This document shows positions 6,061-22,260 of a stretch of 64,000 bases of DNA, piece by piece. A model generated the notes under the pieces. The model was not told where the DNA came from, did not search any database, and worked only from the letters and a program-made list of their open reading frames with translations. Each line of letters opens with the position of its first letter. Position 1 is the first letter of the stretch. Origin of the DNA: an uncultured Clostridia bacterium (GTDB taxonomy: Bacteria > Bacillota > Clostridia > TANB77 > CAG-508); contig CANPVM010000001.1 in NCBI GenBank assembly GCA_947581805.1, positions 249,712 through 313,711 of the forward strand, in the 5' to 3' direction. Made by a program: the position numbers and the translations under genes.

Positions 6061-6062
6061 TT

Positions 6063-7545: not shown

Positions 7546-8202
7546 ATGCAAGAAAGCAAAAAGAAATTTTTTACGATAGGGGCAATTATTGTTATTTTAG
7601 GGATAGGGGGAATGGCATATTATATTTTTCAAAGTCAAAACGAAGATATCGATTTTGAAGAATTAGATATTACGGTTCAAAGTAATGTAGAAAATAGTGT
7701 AGAAAGCAGTGTAGAGAATGAGGTAGAAAAAGAAATTGTTGTTCATATTTCTGGACAAGTAGTAAATGCAGGTGTCATCTCTTTAAAGGAAGGTGCAAGA
7801 ATTATTGATGCAATCAATAAAGCAGGAGGATTAACAAAAGAAGCGGACATTAATAAAGTAAATTTAGCTTATGTACTAGCAGATGCACAAAAAATTTATA
7901 TTCCCAGTGTGAATGATAAAGAAGAAGTATCTTTCGTTTCAGAAGGAAATGAAGATAGTAAAATAGTAACTAGTGGAAGCAATCAAAGTAAAGAAAAAGA
8001 AGAAGCATTGATGATAAATATCAATACAGCAAGTGCAGAAGAATTGCAAAAATTGCCTGGTATTGGTAGTAGTATTGCAGCTAAAATAGTTGCTTATAGA
8101 AAAGAAAATGGGAAATTTAATACCATAGAAGATATTCAAAATGTAAGTGGAATAGGAACAAGCAAATATAATAGTATAAAAAATAATATTTGTATAAAAT
8201 AA
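7546..8202 (+). CDS. comEA: competence protein ComEA (SLBB + tandem helix-hairpin-helix DNA-binding domain)
   Basis: N-terminal TM; C-terminal 'ININTASAEELQKLPGIGSSIAAKIVAYRKENGKFNTIEDIQNVSGIG' HhH motif. Confidence 0.85.
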   Translation: MQESKKKFFTIGAIIVILGIGGMAYYIFQSQNEDIDFEELDITVQSNVENSVESSVENEVEKEIVVHISGQVVNAGVISLKEGARIIDAINKAGGLTKEADINKVNLAYVLADAQKIYIPSVNDKEEVSFVSEGNEDSKIVTSGSNQSKEKEEALMININTASAEELQKLPGIGSSIAAKIVAYRKENGKFNTIEDIQNVSGIGTSKYNSIKNNICIK

Positions 8203-8736: not shown

Positions 8737-8812
<76 letters not shown>

Positions 8813-8821
8813 AATATTTAA

Positions 8822-8862
8822 AGCCTAGTAGATTACAAAAATCTACTAGGCTCTATTTTTTT
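8822..8862 (+). terminator. rho-independent terminator after tRNA (gcctagtagat/atctactaggc + T-run)
   Basis: 11-bp perfect inverted repeat followed by ttttttt. Confidence 0.8.
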
Positions 8863-8934
8863 AATGCAAAATATACTTTTCATATATACAGCTAAGTGAT
8901 ATAATAGTAAAAAAATGTAAAAAAAGAGGGAAAA

Positions 8935-10734
8935 ATGTCAGAAATCAAAGAAGAAATATTACAGCAATATGGTATCTATCAAAAAAGAAAATTAAAAGAA
9001 AATGAAAAGATGCAATTGCTAAAAATCAAACAAGAGATAGAAAAAATAATAAAAATACCAATAGAGAAATTATACTTAGCAGAAGAAGCGGCATGGGGAA
9101 AAGAGCCAGAGAAATCTGCTTATAGTATCTGTGTATTAGTAGATAAAAGGACCAAAGACTTAAGAGAAAAAATAGATTTACTAATTCCTTATGCAAAAAA
9201 TAAAAAAATAGATATTGCATTAAGAGCAATGTGCCAATTTGAAAAAAGAAAAATGATACCAACAGAAAAAGATTATTATATTCATCAATATGGTATTAAA
9301 GTATATGATAGTGGAAAAGAGCCAGAAATTAATGAAAGTTTAGGAGCTACGCAATACGGAAGATATATGGAATATCATAGGGAATTCAGAAACTTTCTTC
9401 ATACAAATGTAGACTATTGGATGAATGAAACTGTTAGAATATATACTTTAAAAATGGGATATGCACTTATTAGTCGAAATGCAGAATTAGAAAGAGATTG
9501 TAATTTTGCAAAATTAATAACAAAAGATAAAAAAATTATTAGCATGATAGACTCTTATTTAGAGCAAACTGAGCAGAAAGCAAAAGAAAAAATATTAGAT
9601 GAGTTTGAAGAATATGTAACTAGTTTAAAACAAGTAAAATTTTCAGCAAAATTAGAAGAAAAACCAACCATGAAGGTATACGAAAAATTATTAAAAAGAA
9701 AACAGAAGCAAGGAACATTAGATATAAAAACCCTAACAAAAGACGATTTATATACTATGTATATTATACAGGATATTGATACTAGCCTAATAGCAGAATT
9801 ATATGGAGTAGAAAATAAAAAAATAGCAGAGAAAAGAAATTCTTGGCAAATCAAGAGAAGAGAAGCGGCCTTTACCAATACAGATGAAATAATAAAGAAA
9901 ACAATAGAATCCGCAGAAATGCAAAGCTCTATATATGCTTATGCTTTACTAAAGAAAAGTGGAATTATGGGCTTCGAAAAATGTACATTACCAATTCTAA
10001 AATATATGCTAGATAATGAAGTTTATTTATTAAAAGAATTTTGGCAATTTACTAAAAATGAAAAAAATAAAGAAGAAAAATTAATTTTTGGAGACACAAA
10101 ATATTCCTATTGTCAAGCAAGTATGGCTGTAGAACTATTATTACAAAACAACTTAATAAAAGAGGTAGATTTTAAACAATATCAAATTACAAAAGAAGGG
10201 AAGGAGTTAGTTTGGTATTGCATACAAAATGATATAGAAGAGATTACTATTCCAATTATTAATAAAAAATTTAAAAATGTTCAATATTATGAATTATATT
10301 ACACAGAAGAGTATCCTACTGATATCGAAGAAGTTACATGGGAAAAATTGTACCATAAATGGAATGAATATTGTCATGAAAACTTCCCTGAATTATTAAG
10401 AGAAGAAAATTTACCAATTGAAAATGAAGTAAAAAATGAAGAAGAGATTGCATTAGTTTGGATGTACTTATTCTTTTCTAATTTAGAATGGAGAAATCTT
10501 TTTCCAAAGCAATGGGAAAAAACAATCTTTATAGGTATCAATGATATTTTAAATCCAATTCGCCAACAAATAAAAGAAAAGTCAATTTCAGTTGTTATGA
10601 AAGAGGATTTTCAATTAACTCAATTTTTAGATATTTCAAATGTAACAAAATATATAGAAATAGAAAAAGTAGAAGATATGGTAGAATATGCAGCAGTTTC
10701 CTGTGCGTATTTAATAAAAATAAGAGAAAGGTAA
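8935..10734 (+). CDS. hypothetical protein, island operon gene 1 (599 aa); central ~190-aa module paralogous to N-terminus of gene 2
   Basis: RBS agaggg; residues ~245-440 ('KVYEKLLKRKQKQGTLDIKTLTKDDLYTMYI...IAELYGVENKKIAEKRNSWQIK...LLKEFWQF...AVELLLQNNLIKEVDFKQYQITKEGKEL') align with residues 1-195 of the next ORF; HTH-like character. Confidence 0.6.
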   Translation: MSEIKEEILQQYGIYQKRKLKENEKMQLLKIKQEIEKIIKIPIEKLYLAEEAAWGKEPEKSAYSICVLVDKRTKDLREKIDLLIPYAKNKKIDIALRAMCQFEKRKMIPTEKDYYIHQYGIKVYDSGKEPEINESLGATQYGRYMEYHREFRNFLHTNVDYWMNETVRIYTLKMGYALISRNAELERDCNFAKLITKDKKIISMIDSYLEQTEQKAKEKILDEFEEYVTSLKQVKFSAKLEEKPTMKVYEKLLKRKQKQGTLDIKTLTKDDLYTMYIIQDIDTSLIAELYGVENKKIAEKRNSWQIKRREAAFTNTDEIIKKTIESAEMQSSIYAYALLKKSGIMGFEKCTLPILKYMLDNEVYLLKEFWQFTKNEKNKEEKLIFGDTKYSYCQASMAVELLLQNNLIKEVDFKQYQITKEGKELVWYCIQNDIEEITIPIINKKFKNVQYYELYYTEEYPTDIEEVTWEKLYHKWNEYCHENFPELLREENLPIENEVKNEEEIALVWMYLFFSNLEWRNLFPKQWEKTIFIGINDILNPIRQQIKEKSISVVMKEDFQLTQFLDISNVTKYIEIEKVEDMVEYAAVSCAYLIKIRER

Positions 10735-10737
10735 AAC

Positions 10738-12000
10738 ATGGAGATATATCAAAAATTATTAAAGAAAAAGCAAGCAGGTGAAAAAATAGAATTAAGTAAT
10801 TTAACAAAAGATGAGCTTTATTTTATTTATATAGAAGAAGGTCATATTGTTAAGGATATTGCAAATTTATTTAACACATCGCAAAACGAAATAAATAAGT
10901 TAAGAAATAAGTGGAATATAAAGGTAACCCAAGAATTCATGACAGATCGTGAAACAATGAAATATGTTTATGAAAAATTTGGAAGCGGTTATGAGTATGA
11001 TTATCATTTATATTTATTAAAAGAACATATGGGACTTCCTACATTCGAAGACTTATTTATTCCATCTTTAATGCTGTTAAAAGATGAAAAAGTTCATAAT
11101 ATAAAAGAATTTTGGCATTTGACAGATAAAAACTATAAAATAAGCGAAGCAGAATTACAATATTGTGTATCATATGAAAATCCAACGTTATTTTATAGAG
11201 CTGATTGGTGTTTAGAAGCTATGTTAAAAGCAAACTTAGTAGAAGAAATCGCCTTTCGAGAATATAAAATAACGAAGCAAGGAGAAAAATTTTTAGAAGA
11301 CTGTATTAAAGAAGAAGTCAATCAATTTGGCTTAGGATATTTATTAAAGAAGTGCTCTAATTCTAATTTATCTTTATCAAATAATGTAAAAGAAACACAA
11401 CAAAAAACAAAAAAGGAAGAAAGTATTGTAAGTTCTAAGGTAGAAGAAACAAAAGAGGAACAAGAAAAAACAATCAAAGAGCAAGTTTCTAACTTAAAAC
11501 AAATTGATTATGTAGAAAATATAACAAAGAAGAAATCTTCAAGTAAAAGTACAAATAAATCAAAAGCAGTAAAAACTAATTTTACAAAAATGAATGAAAT
11601 AAAAACAGACTTTGGAAAAAAATGTGAAAGAATTATTTACGAACATGAAAAAGAAAGACTAAGGCAAGAAGGACAAGCAGAAAAAGCAGAACAAGTAATT
11701 TGGGCTTCCGAAGAAAAAGGAGACGGATTAGGTTATGATATTGAATCCTTTAAAAAAATAAATGGCAAATATGAAAAAATATACATTGAAGTAAAAGGAA
11801 CCGATAAAGATTGTTCAGAACCATTTGATGTTAGTATTAATGAAGTGATGGTATCAGAACAATTAAAAAATTCTTATTATATATATCGTATTGCAAAAGC
11901 AAATACAAAGAAACCTATTTTTTATAAAGTAAAGGGAAGCATAGCAGAAAACTTTGATTTAACAGCAATTAAATTTAGAGCTTCTAGGAGGAGTAAATGA
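10738..12000 (+). CDS. DUF3883 (NO VEIN C-terminal-like, restriction-endonuclease-fold) domain protein with N-terminal HTH-like module
   Basis: 4-nt gap after gene 1. C-terminal 'GKKCERIIYEHEKERL...VIWASEEKGDGLGYDIESF...IYIEVKGTD...SINEVMVSEQLKNSYYIYRI' matches NOV_C/DUF3883 pattern (GE..E..L...V.WVS...GYDI.S...IEVK.T...S.NE...A...Y.IYRV); Lys/Ser-rich linker. Confidence 0.7.
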   Translation: MEIYQKLLKKKQAGEKIELSNLTKDELYFIYIEEGHIVKDIANLFNTSQNEINKLRNKWNIKVTQEFMTDRETMKYVYEKFGSGYEYDYHLYLLKEHMGLPTFEDLFIPSLMLLKDEKVHNIKEFWHLTDKNYKISEAELQYCVSYENPTLFYRADWCLEAMLKANLVEEIAFREYKITKQGEKFLEDCIKEEVNQFGLGYLLKKCSNSNLSLSNNVKETQQKTKKEESIVSSKVEETKEEQEKTIKEQVSNLKQIDYVENITKKKSSSKSTNKSKAVKTNFTKMNEIKTDFGKKCERIIYEHEKERLRQEGQAEKAEQVIWASEEKGDGLGYDIESFKKINGKYEKIYIEVKGTDKDCSEPFDVSINEVMVSEQLKNSYYIYRIAKANTKKPIFYKVKGSIAENFDLTAIKFRASRRSK

Positions 12001-13013
12001 AAAAATTTGAAAATCATTATCATGAACCATTAAATTATTTGAGAGAACAAAATATAGAATCTCCAACATGGTATGAAATTAGAGATAATTTATTAGAATG
12101 GTATATACAAGACTTTGCAGGAGACAGCATAGGAATGGATATGCTAGTAGAATATGTAAGAAAGCAAAAGAAAATAGAGAGCAATACCTTTTTTGAAAAT
12201 ATGGTAAATTCAGTATTATTCCCTAAACTTTCTAAAAAAGATAAAAAAGAAGTTTATCAAATAGCAAAAAATACTTTTATGGATGGACTATTTTATTTTG
12301 AAGAATCTTACCTATTAAATTTAGTAGAAAAAGAATCTTTAGAAAAATATATTGAAAATAATATATTAATACAAGACGAGGAAAAACTTAGATTTCAAAA
12401 TATATTACTTCAGTCTTATTTAGCTGCTTGTAAAATTTATGAAGAAAAAATAGAAATAAATGATTCTGTATTTCAAAAATGGTTAGACGAAGATGGATAT
12501 GAATATTTGAATCATCAAATTGAGATTTTTTATATATTTTCTATGATTCATTTGGAACTATTTAACCAGCAATATTTAAAACCAAAAATAGAAAAATTTT
12601 TATCAAAAATAGATACAAAAAACGATTTTACCATTGCACAATCAATCATAGATATGTATGAAATTGCAGAAGAGTTTGGAGAAGAATATCCAAGGCTTTT
12701 TCTTTCAACAGAGGAAGATTATTGCTTTATTAAATTTTTAGGGTTAGACATAGAAGGAGATATTATAGAACACGATTATGAGCCATATGAAAGTATGTTA
12801 AATATTAGATATACTGACGAAAATGGCATCATGAAAATTGATTATACGAAGATGAAAGAAGATAAATTTTTAATGAAATGGCTAGATGAAGATGGAACTA
12901 TAGAAAAGTTAGTAGAAGATTATAAAATTTTAAAGAGAATATTGAAAAAAATGCAAAAGGAATTAGATAAAGATTATTGTGATGATTGGGAGATAAAGGG
13001 ATTGGTTAGATAA
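11997..13013 (+). CDS. hypothetical protein, island operon gene 3 (338 aa)
   Basis: ATGA start/stop overlap with gene 2 indicates translational coupling; no recognisable motif. Confidence 0.55.
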   Translation: MKKFENHYHEPLNYLREQNIESPTWYEIRDNLLEWYIQDFAGDSIGMDMLVEYVRKQKKIESNTFFENMVNSVLFPKLSKKDKKEVYQIAKNTFMDGLFYFEESYLLNLVEKESLEKYIENNILIQDEEKLRFQNILLQSYLAACKIYEEKIEINDSVFQKWLDEDGYEYLNHQIEIFYIFSMIHLELFNQQYLKPKIEKFLSKIDTKNDFTIAQSIIDMYEIAEEFGEEYPRLFLSTEEDYCFIKFLGLDIEGDIIEHDYEPYESMLNIRYTDENGIMKIDYTKMKEDKFLMKWLDEDGTIEKLVEDYKILKRILKKMQKELDKDYCDDWEIKGLVR

Positions 13014-13164
13014 TGGTTTAACATATTTATGAAGGTAAATAAAAATAAAGTGCAGGAATTGAACTTTAAGTGTTGATAGAAATTAATAAAACAAATTTTA
13101 TTGTAAACAAAAATCATTTATGGTAGAATATTATCAAATATTATAATTAATAGGAGAAAATATT

Positions 13165-13482
13165 ATGGAAGAATTAATGAAAGAAATAAAACAATTTAAC
13201 GAAGAAAGAGATTGGGATAAGTTTCACTCACCAGAAAATTTAGCTAAATCAATATCAATAGAGGCAGGAGAACTTTTAGAATGTTTTCAATGGGATAGTA
13301 TAAATTATAATAAAGATGAAGTTTGTGAAGAACTTGCAGATGTATTTACATATTGTATTCAAATGGCCATGAAATTGGATGTAAATCCAAAAGAAATTAT
13401 TTTAAATAAACTAGAAAAAACAAAGAAAAAGTATCCAGTAGAAAAAGCAAAAGGAGTAAGTACGAAATATAATAAATTATAA
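13165..13482 (+). CDS. MazG-like nucleotide pyrophosphohydrolase (small all-alpha NTP-PPase, YpjD-like)
   Basis: 'EERDWDKFHSPENLAKSISIEAGELLECFQW' and 'CEELADVFTYCIQMA' give the ExxE...ExxD metal-binding pattern of the MazG/HisE-like fold; RBS taggag. Confidence 0.65.
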   Translation: MEELMKEIKQFNEERDWDKFHSPENLAKSISIEAGELLECFQWDSINYNKDEVCEELADVFTYCIQMAMKLDVNPKEIILNKLEKTKKKYPVEKAKGVSTKYNKL

Positions 13483-13501
13483 AGTATAGGGAGAAACTAA
13501 T

Positions 13502-14293
13502 ATGTTAAATGAATTTAATATAGATATTTTTGATTTTATTTTTTCATCAAATATAGAATTAAAAAATGGAGAAAAAAATTCAAATGACTTATGTCAAGAA
13601 CTTGATAAAAAAATAAGTGAAATATGTAAACAGTATGATTTTTGGAATGAATACAAATATTATTTTAATGATAACTGTGTTATTGATGCAAGTACTTTAA
13701 GTGAGTATCAATATATTTATAATGGCTTTCCAAAATTAAAAATTGCAACTAAAAAAGAATATTTCGAATATAAAAAGAATCAAATAAAAGAAAGTATAAA
13801 TAATAATGGCGAATTTGAATGCGAAGAATTTAAAAAGATTACTAAAGGTATATGCAACGAAGGCAAAAAAGAAATCTTAGATTATTGTGAAGTTGTAGGG
13901 ATAATAAAATATAAAGGAAAAGTCTTTATAGCTGCAGGTGATAGTCCTGTATATGCTATAAGATATGATAATATATCGGCTATATTATATAAAGAAGATG
14001 AAGTAAAAAGTTTAAGGGCTGAAAATATGATAATAGTTCAGGGAAATGGTAATTACATTAGTGAAATTAAACAAAATAGTAGTTCATATGATGAAGAATT
14101 TTTTGAAACCGTTATGAGTAAATTGCAATTATTAATACAAGAAGGAGTTACAAAAGATAAAGTAGAATTAATTGAAGAAGCCTGTAAAGAGAAAAATAAA
14201 AATAAAGTGGTAGGTTTTTTAAAAGATGTTGCTTCAGGGACAATAAGTAGTTTGATAGCAACAGGAATATTATGTAAATTTGGAATAAAATAG
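13502..14293 (+). CDS. hypothetical protein (263 aa)
   Basis: ORF with RBS agggag; Cys-containing, no recognisable motif. Confidence 0.45.
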   Translation: MLNEFNIDIFDFIFSSNIELKNGEKNSNDLCQELDKKISEICKQYDFWNEYKYYFNDNCVIDASTLSEYQYIYNGFPKLKIATKKEYFEYKKNQIKESINNNGEFECEEFKKITKGICNEGKKEILDYCEVVGIIKYKGKVFIAAGDSPVYAIRYDNISAILYKEDEVKSLRAENMIIVQGNGNYISEIKQNSSSYDEEFFETVMSKLQLLIQEGVTKDKVELIEEACKEKNKNKVVGFLKDVASGTISSLIATGILCKFGIK

Positions 14294-14320
14294 TTTTAAA
14301 ATAATATGGGGGCAATTATT

Positions 14321-16276
14321 ATGATAGTATATGACAATGTGAAAAGCGGATTTATCGAAGATTTAAGAAAAGATATATTGATTACAAAAATTGAAGAAAA
14401 TTTTAAACAAAAAATAGGTGGAGTTAAAACAGGGGAAAAAACAGCTTGGGAAAATTCTTTAAATAGAGTTGTTAAAATAATAAATAATAAAGATATTCCA
14501 GAAGATGCAGGAATTGCTGTGGAATATAAAGTACCAGAGACAGATCGTAGAATTGATTTTATGATTTCAGGATATAGCGAAGAAGGAAAAGGTGTAATAA
14601 TAATCATTGAACTAAAGCAATGGAGTAAGGTTGATGCAGTGCCTAATAGTTTGTTAGTAAGAGCTTTGGTTAGTAAAAATAATGTTAAAGAAACATCACA
14701 TCCTTCAAGACAAGCATTAAACTACGCTGGCTATTTAAGTAATTTAATTGAGCCAGTCATAAAAAATAAAATCATATTACATCCCTGCTCATATTTACAT
14801 AATTATACTATAAAAGAAAATGATCCATTACTGGATGATAAATTTGATGCACTATTTAAACAATCACCTGTTTTTACAATGGATAATGAAGATGAACTTA
14901 GAGATTTCATCAAAAAATATATTAAAAAGGGAGATAGAGAAAAAGTTTTATTTGAACTTGACAATGGAAATATAGTACCCTCAATAAGATTGCAAGATGA
15001 TATTGCAAATATGATAGAGGGGAAAAAGCAATTTTATTTATTAGAGACACAACAAGATGTATATGAAAAGGCATTAAATATGGCAGAAGAGACATTTAAA
15101 ACTAATGAAAAACATGTATTAATAGTAAAGGGAGGACCAGGTACTGGAAAATCAGCTGTAGCAATACAATTATTTGCAGAATTATACCAAAGAAAAATAA
15201 TTGCACATTATACAACAATGAATGGGGCTCCAAGAAATGTATATTTCAAAGAATTAAAAAATACAGAAGATCAAGAATATATAAGAAATTTATTTACTGG
15301 AGCATATTCATATGATGTTGCAAAAACTAATGAGATTCCTGTTATCATAGTAGATGAAGCACACAGATTAAAACAACAAACATATGTAGGAAGAGTTAGA
15401 GGAAATAATCAAATTAGAGAAATAATAAATGCAGCTAATTTTTCTATATTTTTCATTGATGAAGACCAAATGGTTACTGATAATGATATAGGAACTATAG
15501 AGGAAATTAAAAGATGTTGTGACATTAATGGAGTAAAAACTGTTAATATAGAACAAATGGAATTAGAGAGCCAATTTAGATGTAAAGGATCTACTAGCTA
15601 CATTGCATGGTTGGATAATGTTTTACAAATAAGAAAGACTGCAAACAATATATTAGATACAAAGGAATATGAGTTTAAAGTAGTAGACACACCTGATGAA
15701 TTAGATAAACTAATAACTGAAAGAAATGGTGAAAATAAATCTAGACTTGTTGCGGGATATTATAAAGAATGGATTTCTAGAAACGATTCTACAAAATTTG
15801 ACTTTGAATTATCAGAAACATTTAGAAAAAAGTGGAATTTAGCTAAAAGAAAGACTTGGGCAATTGATAAAGATTCTATAAATGAGATTGGATGTATACA
15901 TACCTGTCAAGGCTTGGAGTTTGATTATATAGGGGTTATAATTGGAACAGATTTAAGGTATAAAAATGGTAAAGTTATAACATATTTAACCCAAAATGCA
16001 GATTCAGATAAAACATCATTAGTACATACAAAGGCTTTGTACAAAAAAAATCCAGAAAAAGCAAAAAAAATAGCAGACAGAATTATAAAAAATACATATA
16101 AGGTACTAATGACACGAGGATTAAGAGGATGTTACATTTATTGTGAAGACAAGCCTTTAGCAGAATATATTAAAGGGAAAATAAAATCAATTGATGATTA
16201 CCAATATAAAGTTGAAGAAGAACAAGTAGAATACTTACAGGTAGCTGAAGAAAGTGAAGAATATAAATATGAATAA
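14321..16276 (+). CDS. DUF2075-family protein: N-terminal PD-(D/E)xK nuclease-like domain + SF1-type P-loop ATPase/helicase-like domain
   Basis: 'RRIDFMISGY...VIIIIELKQW' gives D...E-L-K; Walker A 'VKGGPGTGKSAV'; Walker B 'VIIVDEAHRL'; UvrD-C-like 'CIHTCQGLEFDYIGVIIG'. Start ambiguous: ATG 14306 or ATG 14321 after GGGGG. Confidence 0.75.
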   Translation: MIVYDNVKSGFIEDLRKDILITKIEENFKQKIGGVKTGEKTAWENSLNRVVKIINNKDIPEDAGIAVEYKVPETDRRIDFMISGYSEEGKGVIIIIELKQWSKVDAVPNSLLVRALVSKNNVKETSHPSRQALNYAGYLSNLIEPVIKNKIILHPCSYLHNYTIKENDPLLDDKFDALFKQSPVFTMDNEDELRDFIKKYIKKGDREKVLFELDNGNIVPSIRLQDDIANMIEGKKQFYLLETQQDVYEKALNMAEETFKTNEKHVLIVKGGPGTGKSAVAIQLFAELYQRKIIAHYTTMNGAPRNVYFKELKNTEDQEYIRNLFTGAYSYDVAKTNEIPVIIVDEAHRLKQQTYVGRVRGNNQIREIINAANFSIFFIDEDQMVTDNDIGTIEEIKRCCDINGVKTVNIEQMELESQFRCKGSTSYIAWLDNVLQIRKTANNILDTKEYEFKVVDTPDELDKLITERNGENKSRLVAGYYKEWISRNDSTKFDFELSETFRKKWNLAKRKTWAIDKDSINEIGCIHTCQGLEFDYIGVIIGTDLRYKNGKVITYLTQNADSDKTSLVHTKALYKKNPEKAKKIADRIIKNTYKVLMTRGLRGCYIYCEDKPLAEYIKGKIKSIDDYQYKVEEEQVEYLQVAEESEEYKYE

Positions 16277-16295
16277 AGACAGAAAGGGAAATAGT

Positions 16296-16673
16296 ATGAA
16301 TAAAATAAACAAGATATTAATTTATGTTTTAATTGCATTAATTTCAGGGGTCACTGGCTTTATAATTGGAATTAATATAAATACTAATGTGCAAAATGAT
16401 AAAGAACTTGTTGGAACATATAAAACAAATACTTGGAATGATAAAGAAGAAATTATTGCACTTCAAAAAGATAAAACGATGATATGCCCAAATGGTAGTG
16501 GAACATGGTCATTAGAAGACGGAAAACTTTATATTGAATATGATTACGAAATTTCGACAATTAGTGAAACAGGAGAACAAGAATATAAAAAATCACATGA
16601 AAAACAAGAGGTCATGATTGTTGAAGGTGGATTGATGCTTAGTGGAAATTTCTTTGAAAAAATCAACAAATAA
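16296..16673 (+). CDS. small membrane-anchored protein (125 aa)
   Basis: ATG 16296 with RBS aagggaaa; N-terminal TM 'ILIYVLIALISGVTGFIIGI'; ORF-track start 16254 overlaps upstream gene. Confidence 0.45.
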   Translation: MNKINKILIYVLIALISGVTGFIIGININTNVQNDKELVGTYKTNTWNDKEEIIALQKDKTMICPNGSGTWSLEDGKLYIEYDYEISTISETGEQEYKKSHEKQEVMIVEGGLMLSGNFFEKINK

Positions 16674-17268
16674 GAAATATAGGTAAGCGTTTTATAGTAA
16701 TTTATTGTTACAATTTAGTTTTATAACAAATTTTAATAAGAATTGCTTGTGGCAACGGAAAGTTTAGCATATAATCTTTTTTAAAAGTATGTATTTAATA
16801 TATTAAAAGATAATATTAAATCAATTAGAAAATCAAAAGAGCTTTCACAAGAAAAATGAACTGTTAAATTAAATGTTGTTAGATAAACAATATTTAAATG
16901 AGAGTAAGGATTATATATTCTGAATTCTGAATTGCTAGTTTCATTATCTGAAGCACTAGACACATATGTAAGTACGCTGCTTGGAAAAAATATTCATGAA
17001 GAAAGAGCAGATAATTTAAAAAAATTGTTGAAAAACTAAAAATAATAAATTCACAATATCTAGGGGAAAATAAAGAGTGTGATAAGCCAAAAGTGGGATT
17101 CATACTCTTAAATTTTGTGTCAAATGTAATTAAATAGTGCAAAATATAAAATAAATAACCTAATAAATATTTTATACATTATGAAAAAAGTATTGACTTA
17201 TATATGTATTCATGGTACAATAAAAATGCCATCAAAAAATGGCACATCAATAAAGGAGATGGCATATA

Positions 17269-17625
17269 ATGGATACTATAGGAGGTCAAATACAAAGTCA
17301 GAATTTACTGAAAATTAAAAAAATTGTAGATAAAGATAATAATGGAGATAAATTCATTATTATCAGGACTGAAAAAAATAAAGAGTTTATGAGGGAGTAT
17401 AACTTAAATCGAGAAGACATTAAAGATATTATAAGAAGACTCTCAGTAGATGATTGCTTCGCTGGTCCAGAGAAAGACAGAAATCCACAATATGAAGGGT
17501 GGATATTTAAATTTAATCCTTTATTCGAAGACACTAAGCTTTATATTAAGATTAGAGTTGAGAGTACGGAAAAATCAGTTTGTTTGTCAGTACATGAATT
17601 TGGTAAATATGATGAGGTGAATTAA
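17269..17625 (+). CDS. MqsR-like toxin (putative RNase toxin of a type II TA pair)
   Basis: 118 aa; 'DIKDIIRRLSVDDCFAGPEKDRN...GWIFKF...LYIKIRV...VCLSVHEF' parallels MqsR 'CNVIIGLSESDFYKSM...WQDVYRP...VYLKITV...LIVSFKEK'; 1-nt gap to Zn-finger/HTH partner, same order as mqsRA. Confidence 0.55.
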   Translation: MDTIGGQIQSQNLLKIKKIVDKDNNGDKFIIIRTEKNKEFMREYNLNREDIKDIIRRLSVDDCFAGPEKDRNPQYEGWIFKFNPLFEDTKLYIKIRVESTEKSVCLSVHEFGKYDEVN

Positions 17626-17626
17626 A

Positions 17627-18643
17627 ATGAGAGAATATTGTCCATATTGTAAAAAAGAAGTAGATTATAAAATAGAAAAAAGGGACGTAAAAGAATTTAG
17701 AGGAATAGAAATAAATACCTATGAAAATGTAGCTGTATGCAAAGAATGCCATCAAGATTTATATGTAAATGAAATTGAAGAAAAGAATAATGAAAGAATA
17801 TATGAACTCTATAGAAAAAAAGCAAACATAATAAAACCACAAGATATAGTTAATTTAAGAAAAAAATATGATATATCACAAAGAGAATTAACGGCTATTC
17901 TTGGATTTGGAAAAATGACTATTAATAGATATGAAAGAGGCGGAGTTCCAACAAAATCTCAAAGTGATTATATAAGATTATTGATTGATAATGATAATAA
18001 GTTTGTAGAAAAAGTAAAAGAAGCATACAAAAATGGTAGTATTAATGATAAAACATACGAAAAAATAGTGGCTCAAGAATTAAATATTAGTGTTAATAAA
18101 GAAGAAATTCAAGATAATATAAGAAGATATTTAAAATATGCATTAAGTAGGAAACCTGATATATATAACGGTTATAAATCATTAGATATAGAAAAAGTTG
18201 AAAATATTATATCTTATATTGCTAGCAAAGTAAAAAATCTAACTATTACTAGTTTAAATAAATATTTATGGTTTATAGATATATTATCTTTTAATCAAAG
18301 AAGTGTATCTATTACTGGTTTAACATATCAAAATCAAAAATTTGGACCTACCATAATAGATAAGAAATATGATGAAATATCATTATTAGATGATAAATAT
18401 ATTAGAGAAGATATTGAAACTGAAAATGGTAATACAACAAAAATTATAAGTAATGGTAATTATAATTTAGACAAAATAAGTGATACTGAAAAAGAAATAA
18501 TTGATATAATAATAAAAATACTAAAGAATAAAACTGTGACAGAGATATCTGAATTGTCACATAGAGAGGAAGGATGGAAAAAAACTAAAAGATTTGAAAA
18601 GATACCATTTGATTATTCTATGAATTTAAATATAATTAAATAA
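17627..18643 (+). CDS. MqsA-like antitoxin: N-terminal CxxC...CxxC zinc finger + XRE-type HTH, fused to C-terminal Panacea (DUF4065) domain
   Basis: 'CPYCKK...CKEC' zinc ribbon; HTH 'ISQRELTAILGFGKMTINRYERG'; C-terminal 'LNKYLWFIDILSFNQRSVSITGLTYQNQKFGPTI' fits DUF4065 core (L.KL.Y.D......ITG..Y.....GP). Confidence 0.65.
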   Translation: MREYCPYCKKEVDYKIEKRDVKEFRGIEINTYENVAVCKECHQDLYVNEIEEKNNERIYELYRKKANIIKPQDIVNLRKKYDISQRELTAILGFGKMTINRYERGGVPTKSQSDYIRLLIDNDNKFVEKVKEAYKNGSINDKTYEKIVAQELNISVNKEEIQDNIRRYLKYALSRKPDIYNGYKSLDIEKVENIISYIASKVKNLTITSLNKYLWFIDILSFNQRSVSITGLTYQNQKFGPTIIDKKYDEISLLDDKYIREDIETENGNTTKIISNGNYNLDKISDTEKEIIDIIIKILKNKTVTEISELSHREEGWKKTKRFEKIPFDYSMNLNIIK

Positions 18644-18711
18644 ATAATCAAAAGCAAAATATTTTAGTTTTTTTACTAAATATTTTGCTTTTTTGTTTTA
18701 AAAGGAGGTAA

Positions 18712-19074
18712 ATGATGTACCAATTAGTAAGTTCATTTAATAGTTTCATAAGAAATGAAATAATAACTAATCCTTTTGAATATATGTTTCAAAATCCAAT
18801 TATAGCAATATTATTTTTTTCTCTATTTGGGAGCAAAGTATTAAACAATATTGCCTATACAATGTGTGGAATATTTTATAAAAGTAGAAGTAATAAGGTT
18901 TTAGGAAGTATTGGTTATATGATTTTTTATTGTATAAATGTACAAGTACTTATAAAACTATGTCAATGGTTTCAAAATATCACTTTAATAATGTTTATAT
19001 ATATGGTATTTGTAATAGTAATGTTTATTGTGTTAAGTAAAGTGAAAAGTGTAATAAAACAAAATATAATATAA
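18712..19074 (+). CDS. small polytopic membrane protein (120 aa)
   Basis: RBS aaggagg; 3-4 hydrophobic helices. Confidence 0.4.
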   Translation: MMYQLVSSFNSFIRNEIITNPFEYMFQNPIIAILFFSLFGSKVLNNIAYTMCGIFYKSRSNKVLGSIGYMIFYCINVQVLIKLCQWFQNITLIMFIYMVFVIVMFIVLSKVKSVIKQNII

Positions 19075-19158
19075 AATATAATGATAGTACAAGGTTCGAC
19101 AGACTTCGACAAAAATAATATGATATACTTTTTATAAAAAAGAGAAGGAGGAATAAAA

Positions 19159-19809
19159 ATGGGTATATCATCATTAATTTTAGGAATTATAGGACTACTT
19201 GTATCACTATCATGGTTTAAAGATTTAAGTTTAATAGTGTCAATTGTTGGATTAGTTTTAGGTATTGTTTCTCTAGTAAAGAAGCAGAATAAAGGACTAA
19301 GCATTGCAGGTATTATATTAACAGTTTTAAGCATAATCATATTATTTGCAACTCCAAGTGAAACTAATATTACATCAACTACTAGCACAGGCGAAGACAA
19401 TATTCAAGAAGCAAAAACATATGGACTAAATGACATAGTTACTATTACTACTAAGTCAGGAGAAAAATATGAAATGCAAATTACAGCTATAAAAGAAATG
19501 TCAGAAAGAAATCAATTTTCAGATATAAATCCAGCACAAGTATTTTTGATAGACTATACATATAAAAATATAATAGGAGAGGACTTATATATATCTGATA
19601 TGAATTTTCAAATCATTGATGAGCAAGGAGAAATGGGAGGTACATATCCTAATACTATAACTAATTATCCACAATCAACGCCAGAAGGGGCTACATGTAG
19701 AGCACAAATGATTTTATATACAAATAATAAAAGTAACTATATTACATTAATTTATAAAGACAATATGTTTAATGATAAAGCTGATTTAAAATTTATTATA
19801 AATATCTAA
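19159..19809 (+). CDS. membrane-anchored protein with DUF4352-like extracytoplasmic domain
   Basis: RBS gaaggagg; two N-terminal TM helices; Thr/Ser linker then beta-rich domain ('YEMQITAIKEM...DLYISDMNFQIIDEQGEMGG'). Confidence 0.4.
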   Translation: MGISSLILGIIGLLVSLSWFKDLSLIVSIVGLVLGIVSLVKKQNKGLSIAGIILTVLSIIILFATPSETNITSTTSTGEDNIQEAKTYGLNDIVTITTKSGEKYEMQITAIKEMSERNQFSDINPAQVFLIDYTYKNIIGEDLYISDMNFQIIDEQGEMGGTYPNTITNYPQSTPEGATCRAQMILYTNNKSNYITLIYKDNMFNDKADLKFIINI

Positions 19810-19816
19810 AGTTAGA

Positions 19817-19852
19817 AAAGAGTATCTTAATAAATAGGATACTCTTTTATTA
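19817..19852 (+). terminator. rho-independent terminator (aagagtatc/gatactctt + T-run)
   Basis: 9-bp inverted repeat then ttttatt right after stop at 19809. Confidence 0.65.
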
Positions 19853-19892
19853 ATCAAAGTATTACAAAATTTCTCAAAATCACTTGTCAAGC

Positions 19893-19910
19893 GCTCATAA
19901 CCCGAAGGTC
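19893..19910 (+). repeat. attR-like 18-bp direct repeat of tRNA-Met anticodon arm (identical to 8767-8784)
   Basis: Exact 18/18 'gctcataacccgaaggtc' in non-coding DNA 11.1 kb downstream of the tRNA. Confidence 0.7.
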
Positions 19911-20205
19911 ATCAGTTTAAGATTTATCCTCGTAACTAGCAAAATAAAAGGTTATATTAATTAACTAAAACCAAATTTTATAATTTATTCCGAAACTACC
20001 ATTATATCCTGAAGGTATAGAAATCTTGTTTTATCTTCAATAATTCTTCCATATTCAATTAATTTAGTATCATATATACACATAATAAATACAATGTATT
20101 TTTAATTAATATTTTCAAAATATAACAAGAATTGACAAGAAAACACAAATTTATATTTTAATAATCAAAAATATATGATAGAATATAACAAAGGAGGAGA
20201 TAGAA

Positions 20206-20961
20206 ATGGTAACACACATTCAAAAAGGGCACCCAGAAGAAGTAAAAAACAAAAGAACAATGAGAATAAAAGAAGCAATCAGCTTCTCAACTGGAACAAA
20301 AGAAAAGCCAGATATGCATATTATTGGAGAAGTAAATGGTAATAAAATATTTTTCTTAAAGCCAGGGAAAGAATTCTTTAGAGAGAAAAAAAGAAATATA
20401 AATGACATGACTCCTTGTGTAGGAAATTTATATGAAAAATACTCTTTTGGAGATATATGGAAAGATATGTTAAACCTTTCTGTCCACATAAATGAAGAAA
20501 CGTATAAACAATTAAATGTCTTAATATATAGATTAGCATATTTAATGGATTGTACAATAATAGATAAAAAAGTAAGATACCAACCAGAAGGTGAGGTTCT
20601 TGAAACAATAAATAAAATACAAAATGAAATTGATACTGTTGGATATCAATTTAAAGTATTAGAATTTTTGAACTTTATAGATATTTTAAGTTGGAATGAA
20701 GATGTAAAATACCAACCAGATTGCCTATTTGAAAAAGAAAGAGAAAAGGTAGGAAGAATCAACACCATCTTAAGTTTAATTTCAATACCATTAATATTTA
20801 AACAATTTGTTGATGAAATTATCAAAAACAAGCAATCTTTAGAAAAATTAAATTATTCATTATTAGTAGATGTTGCGCAAAACTTTTCTAGAACTAGAGG
20901 AGTCCATCCAATATCAAATAAGCAACTAATTCAATATTTAAGTCCATATTTAACTGAATAA
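20206..20961 (+). CDS. hypothetical protein, candidate type II restriction endonuclease partner of adjacent methyltransferase
   Basis: 251 aa, RBS aaggagg, directly upstream and co-directional with the C5-MTase; no recognisable motif, so assignment is positional only. Confidence 0.3.
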   Translation: MVTHIQKGHPEEVKNKRTMRIKEAISFSTGTKEKPDMHIIGEVNGNKIFFLKPGKEFFREKKRNINDMTPCVGNLYEKYSFGDIWKDMLNLSVHINEETYKQLNVLIYRLAYLMDCTIIDKKVRYQPEGEVLETINKIQNEIDTVGYQFKVLEFLNFIDILSWNEDVKYQPDCLFEKEREKVGRINTILSLISIPLIFKQFVDEIIKNKQSLEKLNYSLLVDVAQNFSRTRGVHPISNKQLIQYLSPYLTE

Positions 20962-21060
20962 AAGAAGAAAACTATTGACAACAAACAAATGTTTATATAT
21001 AATAAAAACAAAAGAATAATATAAAATAATAACAAGAAAACAAAAAGGAGTACTACATAA

Positions 21061-22260
21061 ATGATAGAAAAAACAGTTTGTGAATTATTTGCAGGAGTTG
21101 GAGGATTTAGATTAGGACTAGAAAAAGAAAATCCAGAATGGAATACCGTATGGGCCAATCAATGGGAACCAGGAAAGAAAAACCAATATGCCTTCGATTG
21201 CTATGTATCACATTTTGGTGAAAGCGAAAACTATGTTAATGAAGATATTGCAAATGTAGATAAAAATATTATTCCAGAACACAATCTATTAGTAGGCGGA
21301 TTTCCTTGCCAAGACTATTCAGTAGCAAGAACAGGGGCAGAAGGAATCGATGGAAAAAAGGGAGTACTATGGTGGCAAATTAGAGATATATTAGAAAAAA
21401 AGCAACCTAAATTTGTACTATTAGAAAATGTTGATAGACTATTGAAATCACCAACAAAACAGAGAGGAAGAGACTTTGGTGTTATATTAGCATGCTTTAA
21501 TGATTTAGGATATAGTGTGGAATGGAGAGTAATCAATGCAGCAGATTATGGATTTGCCCAAAAAAGAAGAAGAACATTCATATATGCAACGAAAAATAGC
21601 ACTACTTATTACAATTCAATAAAAAATAAAAGCTTTGAAGAAATTATCCATAAAGATGGTTTTTTTGCCAAAGAATTTAAAATACAAGAGAATACAAAAG
21701 GAATTGCGCAAGAATTCAAATATAAAGATATATATGAAGTATCAGACAATTTTAAAATGGCATTTGAAAACGCAGGAATTATGAAAGATAATCAGATATA
21801 TATAGAAAAAGTAGAACCTAAATATATTGAGCCAACAAAATTAAGAGAAGTACTGGAAGAAGATGCAGATAAAAAATATTATGTAGTAGGAAATATAGAA
21901 AAATGGAAAGAATTAAAAGGTCCTAAAAAAATTGATAGAGTAAGCAAAACAGGATTTAAATATGTCTTTTCAGAAGGTGGCATGTTATTTCCAGATGCAT
22001 TAGATAGGCCAGCTAGAACTATGCTAACAAGTGAATCTAGCGTTAATAGAAGCTCTCATATAATAGAAGATCCAAAGAAAAAAGAATTAAGAATATTAAC
22101 TCCAATAGAAGCAGAAAGGATAAATGGATTTGATGACAACTGGACAAATACAGGAATGCCAGAAAAATTTAGATATTTCTGTATGGGAAATGCCTTAGTA
22201 GTTGGATTAATAGAAAAAATGGCAAATAGATTAGATGATATATTTGCACAAGAAAATTAA
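21061..22260 (+). CDS. DNA (cytosine-5)-methyltransferase (Dcm/type II m5C MTase)
   Basis: Motif I 'FAGVGGFRLGL', motif IV 'GGFPCQDYS', motif VI 'LLENVDRLL', motif VIII 'FIYAT' region, C-terminal 'GNALVVGL'; RBS aaaggag. Confidence 0.9.
   Translation: MIEKTVCELFAGVGGFRLGLEKENPEWNTVWANQWEPGKKNQYAFDCYVSHFGESENYVNEDIANVDKNIIPEHNLLVGGFPCQDYSVARTGAEGIDGKKGVLWWQIRDILEKKQPKFVLLENVDRLLKSPTKQRGRDFGVILACFNDLGYSVEWRVINAADYGFAQKRRRTFIYATKNSTTYYNSIKNKSFEEIIHKDGFFAKEFKIQENTKGIAQEFKYKDIYEVSDNFKMAFENAGIMKDNQIYIEKVEPKYIEPTKLREVLEEDADKKYYVVGNIEKWKELKGPKKIDRVSKTGFKYVFSEGGMLFPDALDRPARTMLTSESSVNRSSHIIEDPKKKELRILTPIEAERINGFDDNWTNTGMPEKFRYFCMGNALVVGLIEKMANRLDDIFAQEN

What the first reader, a model, noticed from the sequence alone, without database searches (positions are those of the whole stretch)
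14306..16276. Stand-alone DUF2075-type nuclease-helicase, a candidate single-gene defence protein
The protein combines an N-terminal PD-(D/E)xK-like motif (RRIDFMISGY...IIIIELKQW), a full Walker A/B P-loop core and a UvrD-C-like CIHTCQGLEFDYIGVIIG motif. This is the DUF2075 / Schlafen-like group architecture, a family repeatedly found in defence islands. I recall the Nhi family as similar but cannot verify that here. It sits in the tRNA island next to the three-gene operon, preceded by a MazG-like gene and a 263-aa unknown gene. Its stop also overlaps the ORF of a small membrane protein.
Basis: partly seen in the sequence, partly recalled or inferred. Interest (0 to 1): 0.6.

Follow-up and report, generated by a model that had tools for sequence, protein, structure and literature searches.

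The report
Nuclease-helicase defence gene with MazG partner
The gene encodes a nuclease fused to a helicase, a distant relative of known anti-phage proteins, but in most relatives it is not stand-alone because it travels with a small nucleotide-hydrolysing enzyme, a pairing I could not find described.

Summary
The ORF is real (14306..16276; likely true start 14321, 651 aa). It has an N-terminal PD-(D/E)xK nuclease fold with invariant E68/D79/E97-x-K99. The helicase core is a full-length DUF2075/SLFN-g3 SF1B domain (Pfam E 1.7e-91).

It is not a sequence member of Nhi: it misses the PADLOC Nhi and AbiO models that true Nhi hits at 1e-157. It is a distant relative of the verified "Nhi-like" protein of Millman 2022, which corresponds to PADLOC PDC-S41 (hhalign 97%, PDC-S41 E 7e-14).

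"Stand-alone" is only partly right. The upstream MazG-like gene (13165..13482), a homolog of dCTP pyrophosphatase DCTPP1, lies beside the DUF2075 gene on the same strand in 50 of 80 genome loci across several bacterial phyla, in either gene order. A haloarchaeal plasmid and a cyanophage record also carry the pair. In the reverse test, 67 of 78 loci with a close MazG relative have a DUF2075 gene within three genes.

A variable slot between the two genes holds different cargo: the window's 263-aa gene, ApeA, an S24 peptidase and others. The overlapping 139-aa ORF is not conserved.

The mechanism is inferred: Nhi-style degradation of phage DNA, with a facultative partner that may hydrolyse (modified) dNTPs.

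The parts
13165..13482 (+). MazG-like all-alpha NTP pyrophosphohydrolase (105 aa), a DCTPP1/RS21-C6 homolog. It is the conserved but facultative partner of the nuclease-helicase.
   Evidence: Pfam PF12643 E 2.7e-20. PDB sequence hits: 4qgp pyrophosphatase 7e-20, DCTPP1 6sqw 2e-15. The EXXE...EXXD residues E33, E36, E56 and D59 are at least 95% conserved in 45 partners. It is on the same strand beside DUF2075 in 50 of 80 genome loci, and 67 of 78 loci in the reciprocal test. No PADLOC model matches it.
13502..14293 (+). 263-aa gene of unknown function occupying the variable slot between MazG and DUF2075.
   Evidence: No Pfam or PHROGs hit. Only a weak PADLOC AbiTi hit, E 5e-4, to aa 185-257. 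Homologs occur only in L001, L140 and L143 (plus the identical contigs L081 and L082), always in this slot. Other loci hold unrelated genes in the same slot.
14321..16276 (+). Nuclease-helicase gene (651 aa from the likely true start; the longest ORF begins at 14306).
14321..15025 (+). N-terminal PD-(D/E)xK nuclease domain (aa 1 to about 235). Predicted catalytic residues: E68, D79 (14555-14557) and E97-L-K99 (14609-14617).
15110..16150 (+). DUF2075/SLFN-g3 SF1B helicase core. Walker A GGPGTGKS at 15131-15154, Walker B DEAH at 15353-15364, CIHTCQGLEFD motif at 15893-15925.
   Evidence: PF09848 E 1.7e-91 over the full profile. Foldseek hits: DSH9, RecD2, Dda, Upf1, Dna2, SLFN11 and SLFN14, E 3e-9 to 1e-5. 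The motif residues are invariant.
16190..16273 (+). Acidic C-terminal tail (aa 624-651), predicted to be disordered.
   Evidence: pLDDT below 50. This region is not conserved in alignment A1. Other family members carry a Peptidase_S24 domain at this end instead.
16254..16673 (+). 139-aa ORF with one predicted membrane helix, overlapping the stop codon. Probably not part of the system.
   Evidence: No homolog in any of the 80 genome loci, including L001 whose DUF2075 is 93% identical. Found only in L143 and L118 of the metagenome set and in the identical contigs L081 and L082.
13101..13129 (+). Promoter-like site (TTGTAA, 17 nt, TAGAAT, with TG) upstream of MazG. No terminator-like site on the + strand before 16673, so co-transcription of MazG, the 263-aa gene and DUF2075 is plausible.
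   Evidence: This is a consensus match only, and the number of such sites in the region is no higher than in shuffled sequence. Gene gaps are 19 and about 27 nt.
8737..8812 (+). tRNA-Met, marking the left edge of the island.
   Evidence: ARAGORN.
19891..19938 (+). Degenerate direct repeat of the 3' two-thirds of tRNA-Met, an att-like remnant. It marks the probable right edge of an island of about 11 kb.
   Evidence: An 18-nt exact match within a 48-nt imperfect match. No integrase ORF was seen in between.

Best explanation
The gene encodes an Nhi-type anti-phage effector. An N-terminal metal-dependent PD-(D/E)xK nuclease is fused to an ATP-driven SF1B (DUF2075) helicase. It belongs to a large, horizontally mobile subfamily that is distantly related to the verified Nhi-like (PDC-S41) protein.

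In this subfamily the effector usually forms a two-gene module with a small DCTPP1-like MazG NTP pyrophosphohydrolase. A cassette slot between the two genes accepts other defence cargo; in the window that slot holds the 263-aa gene.

Proposed working (inferred, not shown): the helicase loads on phage DNA or replication intermediates and the nuclease degrades them, as shown for Nhi. The MazG-like partner hydrolyses (d)NTPs, most plausibly 5-modified dCTP or other non-canonical dNTPs. That would either starve phages that build modified DNA, or stop modified nucleotides released from degraded phage DNA from entering host DNA. The partner is helpful but not obligatory.

Shown here: the domain architecture, the conserved catalytic residues, the homology relationships, the gene linkage, and the mobility and defence-rich context. 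Inferred: the defence phenotype, the substrates, and any cooperation between the two proteins.
For: Architecture and catalytic residues.

Homology to the verified Nhi-like protein: BLASTP 24% identity over 335 aa, E 8e-10. PDC-S41 scores 7e-14 for the window protein against 8.8e-76 for a fragment of the verified protein. hhalign gives 97% probability. Millman 2022 verified Nhi-like as a single-gene defence. Bari et al. showed nuclease and helicase activities for Nhi and that defence depends on both.

Linkage to MazG-like: 50 of 80 genome loci, same strand, 29 upstream and 20 downstream, gaps mostly -14 to +50 nt and often overlapping start and stop codons. The reciprocal test gives 67 of 78, and 10 of the 11 misses have under 2.7 kb of downstream sequence. 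The pair also occurs in a Halalkalicoccus plasmid, a Microcystis phage record and a Priestia plasmid. No other neighbour family occurs in more than 11 of the 80 loci.

The MazG-like protein is a DCTPP1 homolog with intact metal-binding residues.

Context: the island is tRNA-linked with an att-like repeat. Neighbours and slot genes across loci include ApeA/PDC-S58, a PD-Lambda-3_B-like HEPN protein, PDC-M36A, Mrr_cat, AAA_21, McaZI-like DUF3427-NOV_C, MrcB_N, PLD-helicase-DUF3427 with NUDIX, RM genes and integrases. Lutz 2019 showed that McaZI-group proteins bind 5mC/5hmC DNA and attenuate the 5hmC phage T4gt, and noted a DUF2075 NTPase next to McaZI.

The gene is rare in phage genomes: 4 of 50,697 records.
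Against: No experiment exists on this protein or its subfamily.

About 30 of the 80 genome loci lack MazG and show no substitute partner; their neighbours are unrelated housekeeping genes. MazG presence is scattered across the DUF2075 tree.

Pairwise identities of the two proteins are uncorrelated (rho -0.02). Nearly identical MazG genes sit beside DUF2075 genes only 45% identical. That argues against a tightly co-adapted complex.

Independent defence genes such as ApeA sit between the two genes. MazG could therefore be just a conserved flank of a defence hotspot.

The verified Nhi-like protein and Nhi both work as single genes.

The MazG substrate is unknown. The modified-dNTP idea rests on homology to DCTPP1 and on the modified-cytosine-reader genes seen in some loci, and the window has no DUF3427 or MrcB_N reader gene.
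Confidence: 0.55

Rival explanations
1. The nuclease-helicase is a self-sufficient single-gene defence protein. The MazG-like gene is a functionally independent neighbour. It could be a house-cleaning or separately defensive NTP pyrophosphatase, or a conserved flank where defence cassettes are exchanged by recombination.
For: About a third of the genome loci have no MazG and no replacement. MazG presence is scattered on the DUF2075 tree. The two proteins show no co-variation (rho -0.02). DNA homology between loci stops within about 6 bp after the MazG stop, and the downstream genes are swapped. Unrelated defence genes such as ApeA are inserted between the two. Nhi and Nhi-like each protect as single genes.
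Against: Both gene orders occur, which a fixed hotspot flank would not predict. Overlapping start and stop codons (-4, -1) are seen in many distant taxa. The pairing persists across bacterial phyla, a haloarchaeon and a cyanophage record, whose other neighbours differ. The reciprocal linkage is near-complete wherever the contig extends far enough. Different NTP-PPase types (PRA-PH-like, NUDIX) recur next to DUF2075 genes in other loci.
Confidence: 0.3
2. The gene is not an immune gene. It would serve DNA replication, recombination or repair for the host or for an integrative mobile element, with MazG acting as ordinary dNTP-pool hygiene.
For: In several Clostridia loci the pair lies directly after an element's integrase, excisionase-like, replication and DnaC-like genes. 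SF1B helicase-nucleases such as Dna2 and RecD2 are the closest solved folds. S24/LexA-like fusions in relatives hint at a link to DNA damage.
Against: The distribution is patchy and crosses domains of life, in unrelated contexts. The gene is nearly absent from phage genomes. The window has no integrase or replication genes in the island. There is homology to a verified defence protein. The surroundings are rich in defence genes.
Confidence: 0.1

Closest known systems
Nhi-like (Millman et al. 2022, system SG141, Bacillus cereus FSL H8-0482), which corresponds to PADLOC PDC-S41
   Same: Same order of N-terminal PD-(D/E)xK nuclease and DUF2075 helicase, and similar length (611 vs 651 aa). Sequence homology is detectable through the nuclease motif, Walker A and Walker B. 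Both hit PDC-S41.
   Different: Only 24% identity. The PDC-S41 hit is weak and split into two stretches (7e-14 against 8.8e-76). Nhi-like was cloned and verified as a single gene, whereas this subfamily is usually paired with a MazG-like gene.
Nhi (SERP2475, Staphylococcus epidermidis; Bari et al. 2022), related to AbiO
   Same: Nuclease-helicase architecture with an ID-x(n)-ELK nuclease motif and a DUF2075 P-loop core. The proposed mode of action is taken from it: degradation of phage replication intermediates.
   Different: No hit to the Nhi or AbiO HMMs. BLASTP E is only 0.003, around Walker A, and hhalign probability is 61%. Nhi has an extra C-terminal region, and the Nhi paper's list of its ten most frequent defence-related neighbour families does not include MazG.
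McaZI-group DUF3427-DUF3883 restriction-like proteins that sit next to DUF2075 NTPases (Lutz et al. 2019)
   Same: That paper noted a DUF2075 NTPase beside McaZI. Here about 16 metagenome loci have a McaZI-like gene, a 102-aa NTP-PPase, MazG and DUF2075 in one tight array. The window's island has a related NOV_C gene (10738..12000) two genes upstream of MazG.
   Different: The window has no DUF3427 reader. Its NOV_C gene belongs to a separate three-gene operon that does not co-occur with the module. The 2019 paper did not mention the NTP pyrophosphatases.
Schlafen group III proteins (SLFN11, SLFN14 and others)
   Same: The helicase domain is homologous (PF09848 is named after it) and structurally similar.
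   Different: The N-terminal domain here is a PD-(D/E)xK nuclease, not the Schlafen AlbA_2-type RNase core. No such Pfam hit was found.
DCTPP1 / RS21-C6 (for the partner gene)
   Same: Same all-alpha MazG-like fold family, with clear sequence homology and conserved metal ligands. From established knowledge, DCTPP1 prefers 5-modified dCTP and keeps such nucleotides out of DNA.
   Different: This is a bacterial 105-aa protein encoded beside a nuclease-helicase. Its substrate has not been tested.

Membership tests
Pfam PF09848 (DUF2075 / SLFN-g3_helicase) | Profile match above the gathering score over the whole domain | tested here: met
   307.6 bits against a cutoff of 24, E 1.7e-91, profile positions 1-354 of 354.
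SF1B helicases (RecD2 / Dda / Upf1 type) | Two RecA-like domains with Walker A, Walker B and later helicase motifs, and fold similarity to SF1B members | tested here: met
   GGPGTGKS, DEAH, the QGxEFD motif and R599 are invariant. Foldseek hits: DSH9 3e-9, RecD2 3e-8, Dna2, Upf1 and Dda. Unwinding activity and its polarity cannot be tested here.
Nhi (Bari et al. 2022) | N-terminal PD-(D/E)xK nuclease followed by a DUF2075 helicase | tested here: met
Nhi (Bari et al. 2022) | Sequence membership: match to the Nhi profile (PADLOC PDLC02372, and the related AbiO PDLC02350) | tested here: not met
   No hit at E <= 0.01. As a positive control, SERP2475 and the Vibrio homolog hit these models at 1e-157 to 1e-188. 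BLASTP against SERP2475 gives E 0.003.
Nhi (Bari et al. 2022) | A single gene is sufficient for phage resistance, and resistance depends on nuclease and helicase activity | not testable with these tools
   Needs cloning and phage challenge.
Nhi-like (Millman 2022) / PADLOC PDC-S41 | Match to the PDC-S41 profile, or homology to the verified B. cereus protein | tested here: inconclusive
   PDC-S41 E 7.1e-14, but in two partial stretches. The first 399 aa of the verified protein score 8.8e-76. BLASTP gives 24% identity over 335 aa, E 8e-10, and hhalign gives 97%. The proteins are homologous, but at subfamily distance.
Nhi-like (Millman 2022) / PADLOC PDC-S41 | Single-gene system | tested here: not met
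   This subfamily is linked to a MazG-like gene in 50 of 80 loci, and 67 of 78 in the reciprocal test. About a third of the genome loci are solitary.
Schlafen family (group III) | N-terminal Schlafen (AlbA_2-type) nuclease core in addition to the helicase domain | tested here: not met
   No such Pfam hit. The N-terminal domain has a restriction-endonuclease fold.
Hna | Match to an Hna profile, and the Hna domain arrangement | tested here: inconclusive
MazG-like NTP pyrophosphohydrolases (PF12643), for the partner gene | Profile match and the EXXE...EXXD metal-binding motif | tested here: met
   72.9 bits against a cutoff of 27. E33, E36, E56 and D59 are at least 95% conserved. Homology to DCTPP1 and 4qgp.

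The most novel reading that the evidence does not exclude
The DCTPP1-like MazG enzyme and the Nhi-type nuclease-helicase would form a previously undescribed class of defence module. In many loci a modified-cytosine-reader nuclease (McaZI-like, MrcB_N or PLD-helicase-DUF3427) and a second NTP-PPase or NUDIX enzyme are also present. The module would couple destruction of phage DNA with hydrolysis of non-canonical dNTPs. That hydrolysis would either starve phages that replicate with modified bases, or prevent autoimmunity by keeping modified nucleotides released from degraded phage DNA out of the host chromosome. The gap between the two genes would serve as a recombinational slot for swapping further defence cargo.
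Probability: 0.25. Interest if true: 0.8.

Novelty: new variant of a known kind. Interest (0 to 1): 0.55.

Why it matters
Nuclease-helicase proteins of the Nhi type are catalogued as single-gene defences. Here a large, cross-domain subfamily is shown to be encoded mostly with a dCTP-pyrophosphatase-like enzyme. It is often also near proteins that read modified cytosine.

If the two genes cooperate, that would link two defence strategies that have been studied separately: cutting phage DNA and manipulating the nucleotide pool. It would also give a bacterial context for the "pool sanitising" role known for human DCTPP1.

The variable slot between the two genes is also a practical place to look for new defence genes, such as the 263-aa gene in this window.

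If the genes do not cooperate, the finding reduces to an ordinary new member of a known defence family.

Tried and rejected
- **PDB sequence search** of the whole protein found only a Walker-A match to HelD (E 0.1), which is uninformative.
- **Viral-contig scan** with the family alignment found no relatives. INPHARED tblastn found only 4 records. I therefore rejected a phage-replication role.
- **The 139-aa overlapping ORF as a partner** was rejected. It has no homolog in the 80 genome loci and appears in only 2 metagenome loci.
- **The upstream three-gene operon as part of the module** was rejected. The 599-aa and 338-aa genes never co-occur with it, and DNA homology with sister loci starts only about 30-40 bp upstream of MazG.
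- **MazG-DUF2075 fusion proteins** (Rosetta-stone evidence): none among 269 collected family proteins. The C-terminal extensions turned out to be Peptidase_S24 or PIF1 domains.
- **Co-evolution of the pair** gave no signal (rho -0.02). That weakens the idea of a tight complex but does not affect the linkage.
- **An alternative NTP-PPase in the MazG-less loci**: none found among 84 flanking genes.
- **The B. cereus plasmid homolog H18 as the verified Nhi-like clade**: it is not (24% identity, E 1e-6).
- **Literature searches** found nothing describing this pairing. "MazG + DUF2075", "pyrophosphohydrolase + DUF2075", "PDC-S41" and "MazG + modification-dependent + restriction + dNTP" returned no papers. 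"MazG-like + anti-phage + helicase" returned four papers, none apparently about this pairing judging by title and abstract. This library omits most subscription-journal papers.
- **Promoter and terminator scan**: site counts were not above the shuffled expectation, so I use it only as a weak hint.
Full report

Yes. The six-frame ORF list shows a 656-aa ORF at 14306..16276 on the + strand.

Pfam PF09848 (DUF2075, now named "SLFN-g3_helicase") matches residues 269-615 across the entire 354-position profile. The score is E 1.7e-91, 307.6 bits against a gathering score of 24.

The start should probably be moved to the ATG at 14321, for three reasons:
- A GGGGG run lies 8 nt upstream of it.
- M1 of the 651-aa form is invariant among homologs.
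- Public gene calls give 651 aa.

Residue numbers below use the 651-aa form.

**2. What is the protein?**

An alignment of 54 homologs (46-100% identity) shows these residues to be invariant:
- In the N-terminal region: E68, D79 and E97-L-K99.
- In the helicase core: Walker A (G271-K277), Walker B (D345-E-A-H348), the CIHTxQGLEF motif and R599.

AlphaFold2 models were built for the whole protein (pLDDT 78) and for residues 1-262 alone (pLDDT 87.6, pTM 0.81).
- The whole protein resembles SF1B helicases: DSH9, RecD2, Dda, Upf1 and Dna2. It also resembles the helicase domains of SLFN11 and SLFN14 (Foldseek E 3e-9 to 1e-5).

The last 28 residues are acidic and predicted to be disordered.

**3. 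Relation to Nhi and Nhi-like**

Bari et al. describe Nhi (SERP2475, 606 aa) as an N-terminal PD-(D/E)xK nuclease plus a DUF2075/SF1 helicase. It limits phage DNA accumulation, and immunity needs both activities. I took the Nhi sequences from that paper's supplement and used them as positive controls.
- SERP2475 and its Vibrio homolog hit the PADLOC Nhi and AbiO models at 1e-139 to 1e-188.
- The window protein hits neither at E <= 0.01.
- Direct BLASTP against SERP2475 gives E 0.003, around Walker A only.
- hhalign of the family profile against SERP2475 gives 61% probability. Even so, it aligns the E-x(10)-D...ExK motif with Nhi's nuclease motif, and Walker A with Walker A.

Millman et al. 2022 verified a different protein with the same architecture and "no sequence identity" to Nhi. 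They named it Nhi-like. The first 399 residues of that protein are in their supplement (B. cereus FSL H8-0482, 611 aa).
- That fragment hits PADLOC PDC-S41 at 8.8e-76.
- The window protein hits PDC-S41 at 7.1e-14, in two partial stretches.
- BLASTP between the two gives 24% identity over 335 residues (E 8e-10).
- hhalign gives 97% probability.

Conclusion: the protein works like Nhi and Nhi-like in architecture. It is homologous to Nhi-like at subfamily distance and is not a sequence member of Nhi.

The subfamily is large. There are 3,903 clusters at 50% identity with E <= 1e-3, of which 562 have E <= 1e-30.

**4. Surroundings: the gene is usually not alone**

I fetched 80 loci from species-representative genomes that carry a homolog of 33-93% identity. 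They come from Clostridia, Bacilli, Anaeroplasma and Izemoplasmatales, Bacteroidales, Flavobacterium, Ignatzschineria, Spirochaetes and a Methanomassiliicoccales archaeon.

A tblastn of all the window's island proteins against these loci gave a striking result.
- The MazG-like gene (window 13165..13482) is present in 50 loci.
- None of the other neighbours I queried is found in more than 7 loci.

In every one of the 50 loci the MazG-like gene is on the same strand as the DUF2075 gene. It lies directly upstream in 29 and directly downstream in 20. In L002 it sits between two DUF2075 genes. Gaps are mostly -14 to +50 nt and often -4 or -1. Clustering all 1,430 called genes shows that no other family occurs in more than 11 loci.

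The reciprocal test started from the MazG-like protein and used the metagenome collection (80 loci, at least 81% identity).
- 67 of 78 loci have a DUF2075 gene within three genes downstream.
- 10 of the 11 exceptions have less than 2.7 kb of downstream sequence.

The pair is also seen in annotated records far away taxonomically:
- a Halalkalicoccus jeotgali plasmid, where RefSeq annotates a "nucleotide pyrophosphohydrolase" 5 nt upstream;
- the Microcystis phage Mwe-JY31 record;
- a Priestia plasmid.

The partner is a clear homolog of DCTPP1/RS21-C6 and of the archaeal pyrophosphatase 4qgp. Its EXXE...EXXD metal ligands are conserved. No PADLOC model matches it, and no paper in the searchable library mentions MazG or a pyrophosphohydrolase together with DUF2075.

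**5. How tight is the partnership?**

Not obligate.
- About 30 of the 80 genome loci lack MazG. Some of these are truncated, but around 20 have ample flanks.
- The neighbours in those loci are unrelated housekeeping genes with no substitute NTP-PPase.
- MazG-positive and MazG-negative loci are interleaved on the DUF2075 tree. Nearest-neighbour concordance is 0.67 against 0.53 expected (p about 0.02).
- Pairwise identities of the two proteins are uncorrelated (rho -0.02).
- The window's MazG is 88-94% identical at protein level to those of L015, L018, L020, L028, L029 and L030, but the adjacent DUF2075 proteins are only 44-45% identical. At the DNA level, homology of 82-89% covers little more than the MazG ORF and stops within about 6 bp after its stop codon.

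This pattern fits a conserved gene next to a diversifying or swappable one. It argues against a finely co-adapted complex. The occurrence of both gene orders, and the cross-domain persistence of the pair, argue for a functional link and against a mere hotspot flank.

**6. A cassette slot**

One or two extra genes lie between MazG and DUF2075 in 23 of the 67 linked metagenome loci, and in several genome loci. Every gap is short. The contents differ:

| Slot content | Where | Evidence |
|---|---|---|
| 263-aa gene | window, L001, L140, L143 | |
| ApeA HEPN protein (PDC-S58) | L005, L007 | |
| Hypoth_Ymh / PD-Lambda-3_B-like protein | L085, L095 | |
| 138-aa Peptidase_S24 protein | 4 loci | |
| 91-aa + 125-aa Zn-ribbon pair | 8-10 loci | |
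| PLD-ResIII-DUF3427 enzyme with a NUDIX hydrolase | L075, L122 | |

The 263-aa protein has no Pfam or PHROGs match. Its only hit is a weak PADLOC AbiTi match, so its role is unexplained.

**7. A recurring theme of modified bases**

About 16 metagenome loci read as follows, with overlapping stop and start codons: a 337-aa gene, a 102-aa gene, MazG, an optional slot gene, then DUF2075.
- The 337-aa protein is a DUF3427 + NOV_C fusion. This is the McaZI group, which Lutz et al. showed binds 5mC/5hmC DNA and attenuates the 5hmC phage T4gt. They also remarked that McaZI lies next to a DUF2075 NTPase.
- The 102-aa protein looks like a second all-alpha NTP-PPase, but the support is weak (PRA-PH E 0.007, below the curated cutoff).

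Other loci fit the same theme.
- The Priestia plasmid has NUDIX MutT, an MrcB_N protein overlapping MazG-like, DUF2075, then a type I RM system.
- A B. cereus plasmid has a PRA-PH-type NTP-PPase, an HNH gene and a DUF2075-type helicase.

From established knowledge, DCTPP1 prefers 5-modified dCTP. These associations therefore motivate two related hypotheses, neither proven. The partner may hydrolyse non-canonical dNTPs to starve phages that use modified DNA. Or it may keep modified nucleotides salvaged from degraded phage DNA out of the host chromosome.

The window itself has no DUF3427 or MrcB_N reader. Its Mrr_N + NOV_C gene (10738..12000) belongs to a separate operon that does not travel with the module.

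**8. Island and mobility**

tRNA-Met lies at 8737..8812. A degenerate copy of its 3' two-thirds lies at about 19891-19938. Together they bracket an island of about 11 kb that has no integrase.

In related Clostridia loci the pair follows an integrase, an excisionase-like gene and a DnaC-like ATPase of an integrative element.

The gene is nearly absent from phage genomes: 4 of 50,697 records, with no hits in IMG/VR. It does occur on some plasmids, including archaeal ones.

**9. Verdict**

This is an Nhi-type nuclease-helicase and a credible defence gene, but by sequence it belongs near Nhi-like (PDC-S41), not Nhi. In this subfamily "stand-alone" is the minority state.

The best-supported reading is a facultative two-gene module (DCTPP1-like MazG plus nuclease-helicase) with a cassette slot (confidence about 0.55). 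The main rival is that MazG is an independent neighbour or a hotspot flank (about 0.3). A non-immune role is unlikely (about 0.1).

Nothing about activity, substrates or phenotype has been shown for this protein. Those steps are inferred from Nhi, Nhi-like and DCTPP1.

Noticed in passing
window 19891-19938 (compare tRNA-Met at 8765-8812): A degenerate direct repeat of the 3' two-thirds of tRNA-Met, with an 18-nt exact core. It looks like an att remnant bounding an island of about 11 kb (8813-19940) that has no integrase. The RM-like genes at 20206-22260 lie outside it.
   Followed up: partly
window 13483-14320; also L003-L007, L075 and L085-L143: The gap between MazG and DUF2075 acts as a variable cassette slot. 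Its contents differ by locus: the 263-aa gene, ApeA, a Hypoth_Ymh/HEPN-like protein, an S24 peptidase, a Zn-ribbon pair, PLD-helicase-DUF3427 with NUDIX, and others. DNA homology between loci breaks within about 6 bp after the MazG stop.
   Followed up: partly
P0123, P0125, P0127, P0129, P0133, P0206, P0258; L036, L046; slot genes in L094, L100, L113, L138: Many members of this DUF2075 subfamily have a C-terminal Peptidase_S24 (LexA-like) domain, and the same domain occurs as a separate slot gene. That hints at regulation linked to RecA/ssDNA or DNA damage. P0156 instead carries a second, PIF1-like helicase.
   Followed up: partly
L086-L115 and L138 (metagenome loci); window 10738-12000: About 16 loci have a McaZI-like DUF3427+NOV_C gene, a 102-aa putative second NTP-PPase, MazG and DUF2075 in one tightly packed array. 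The window's 420-aa Mrr_N+NOV_C gene hits PADLOC PDC-S36 (7e-35) and PD-T4-1, but it sits in a separate three-gene operon whose other two genes have no detectable family.
   Followed up: partly
window 17269-18643: An MqsR-like toxin (weak Pfam hit) is followed by a 338-aa MqsA-type antitoxin fused to a SocA/Panacea domain. This pair travels with the MazG-263-DUF2075 block in L028 and L143.
   Followed up: no
window 20206-22260: A 251-aa gene with no family hit is followed by a 399-aa protein that I read as a C5 DNA methyltransferase from its sequence, without a profile search. Together they may be a type II RM pair just outside the att-like repeat.
   Followed up: no
L002 8061-12090; L164 (Hymenobacter plasmid) 4001-7987: Two DUF2075 nuclease-helicase genes lie in tandem. 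In L002 they flank a single MazG gene.
   Followed up: no
PADLOC results for SERP2475: Genuine Nhi hits the PADLOC AbiO model almost as strongly as the Nhi model (1e-139 against 1e-157), and the Vibrio Nhi homolog hits AbiO better. Nhi and lactococcal AbiO therefore appear to be one family.
   Followed up: no
window 13502-14293: The 263-aa slot protein has no Pfam or PHROGs match. Its C-terminal 70 residues give a weak PADLOC AbiTi hit (E 5e-4) and end in a hydrophobic stretch. Function unknown.
   Followed up: partly
window 16254-16673: The 139-aa ORF that overlaps the DUF2075 stop has one predicted membrane helix and a weak lipocalin-like hit (GH43_C, E 3e-4). It recurs downstream of DUF2075 only in L118 and L143.
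   Followed up: partly
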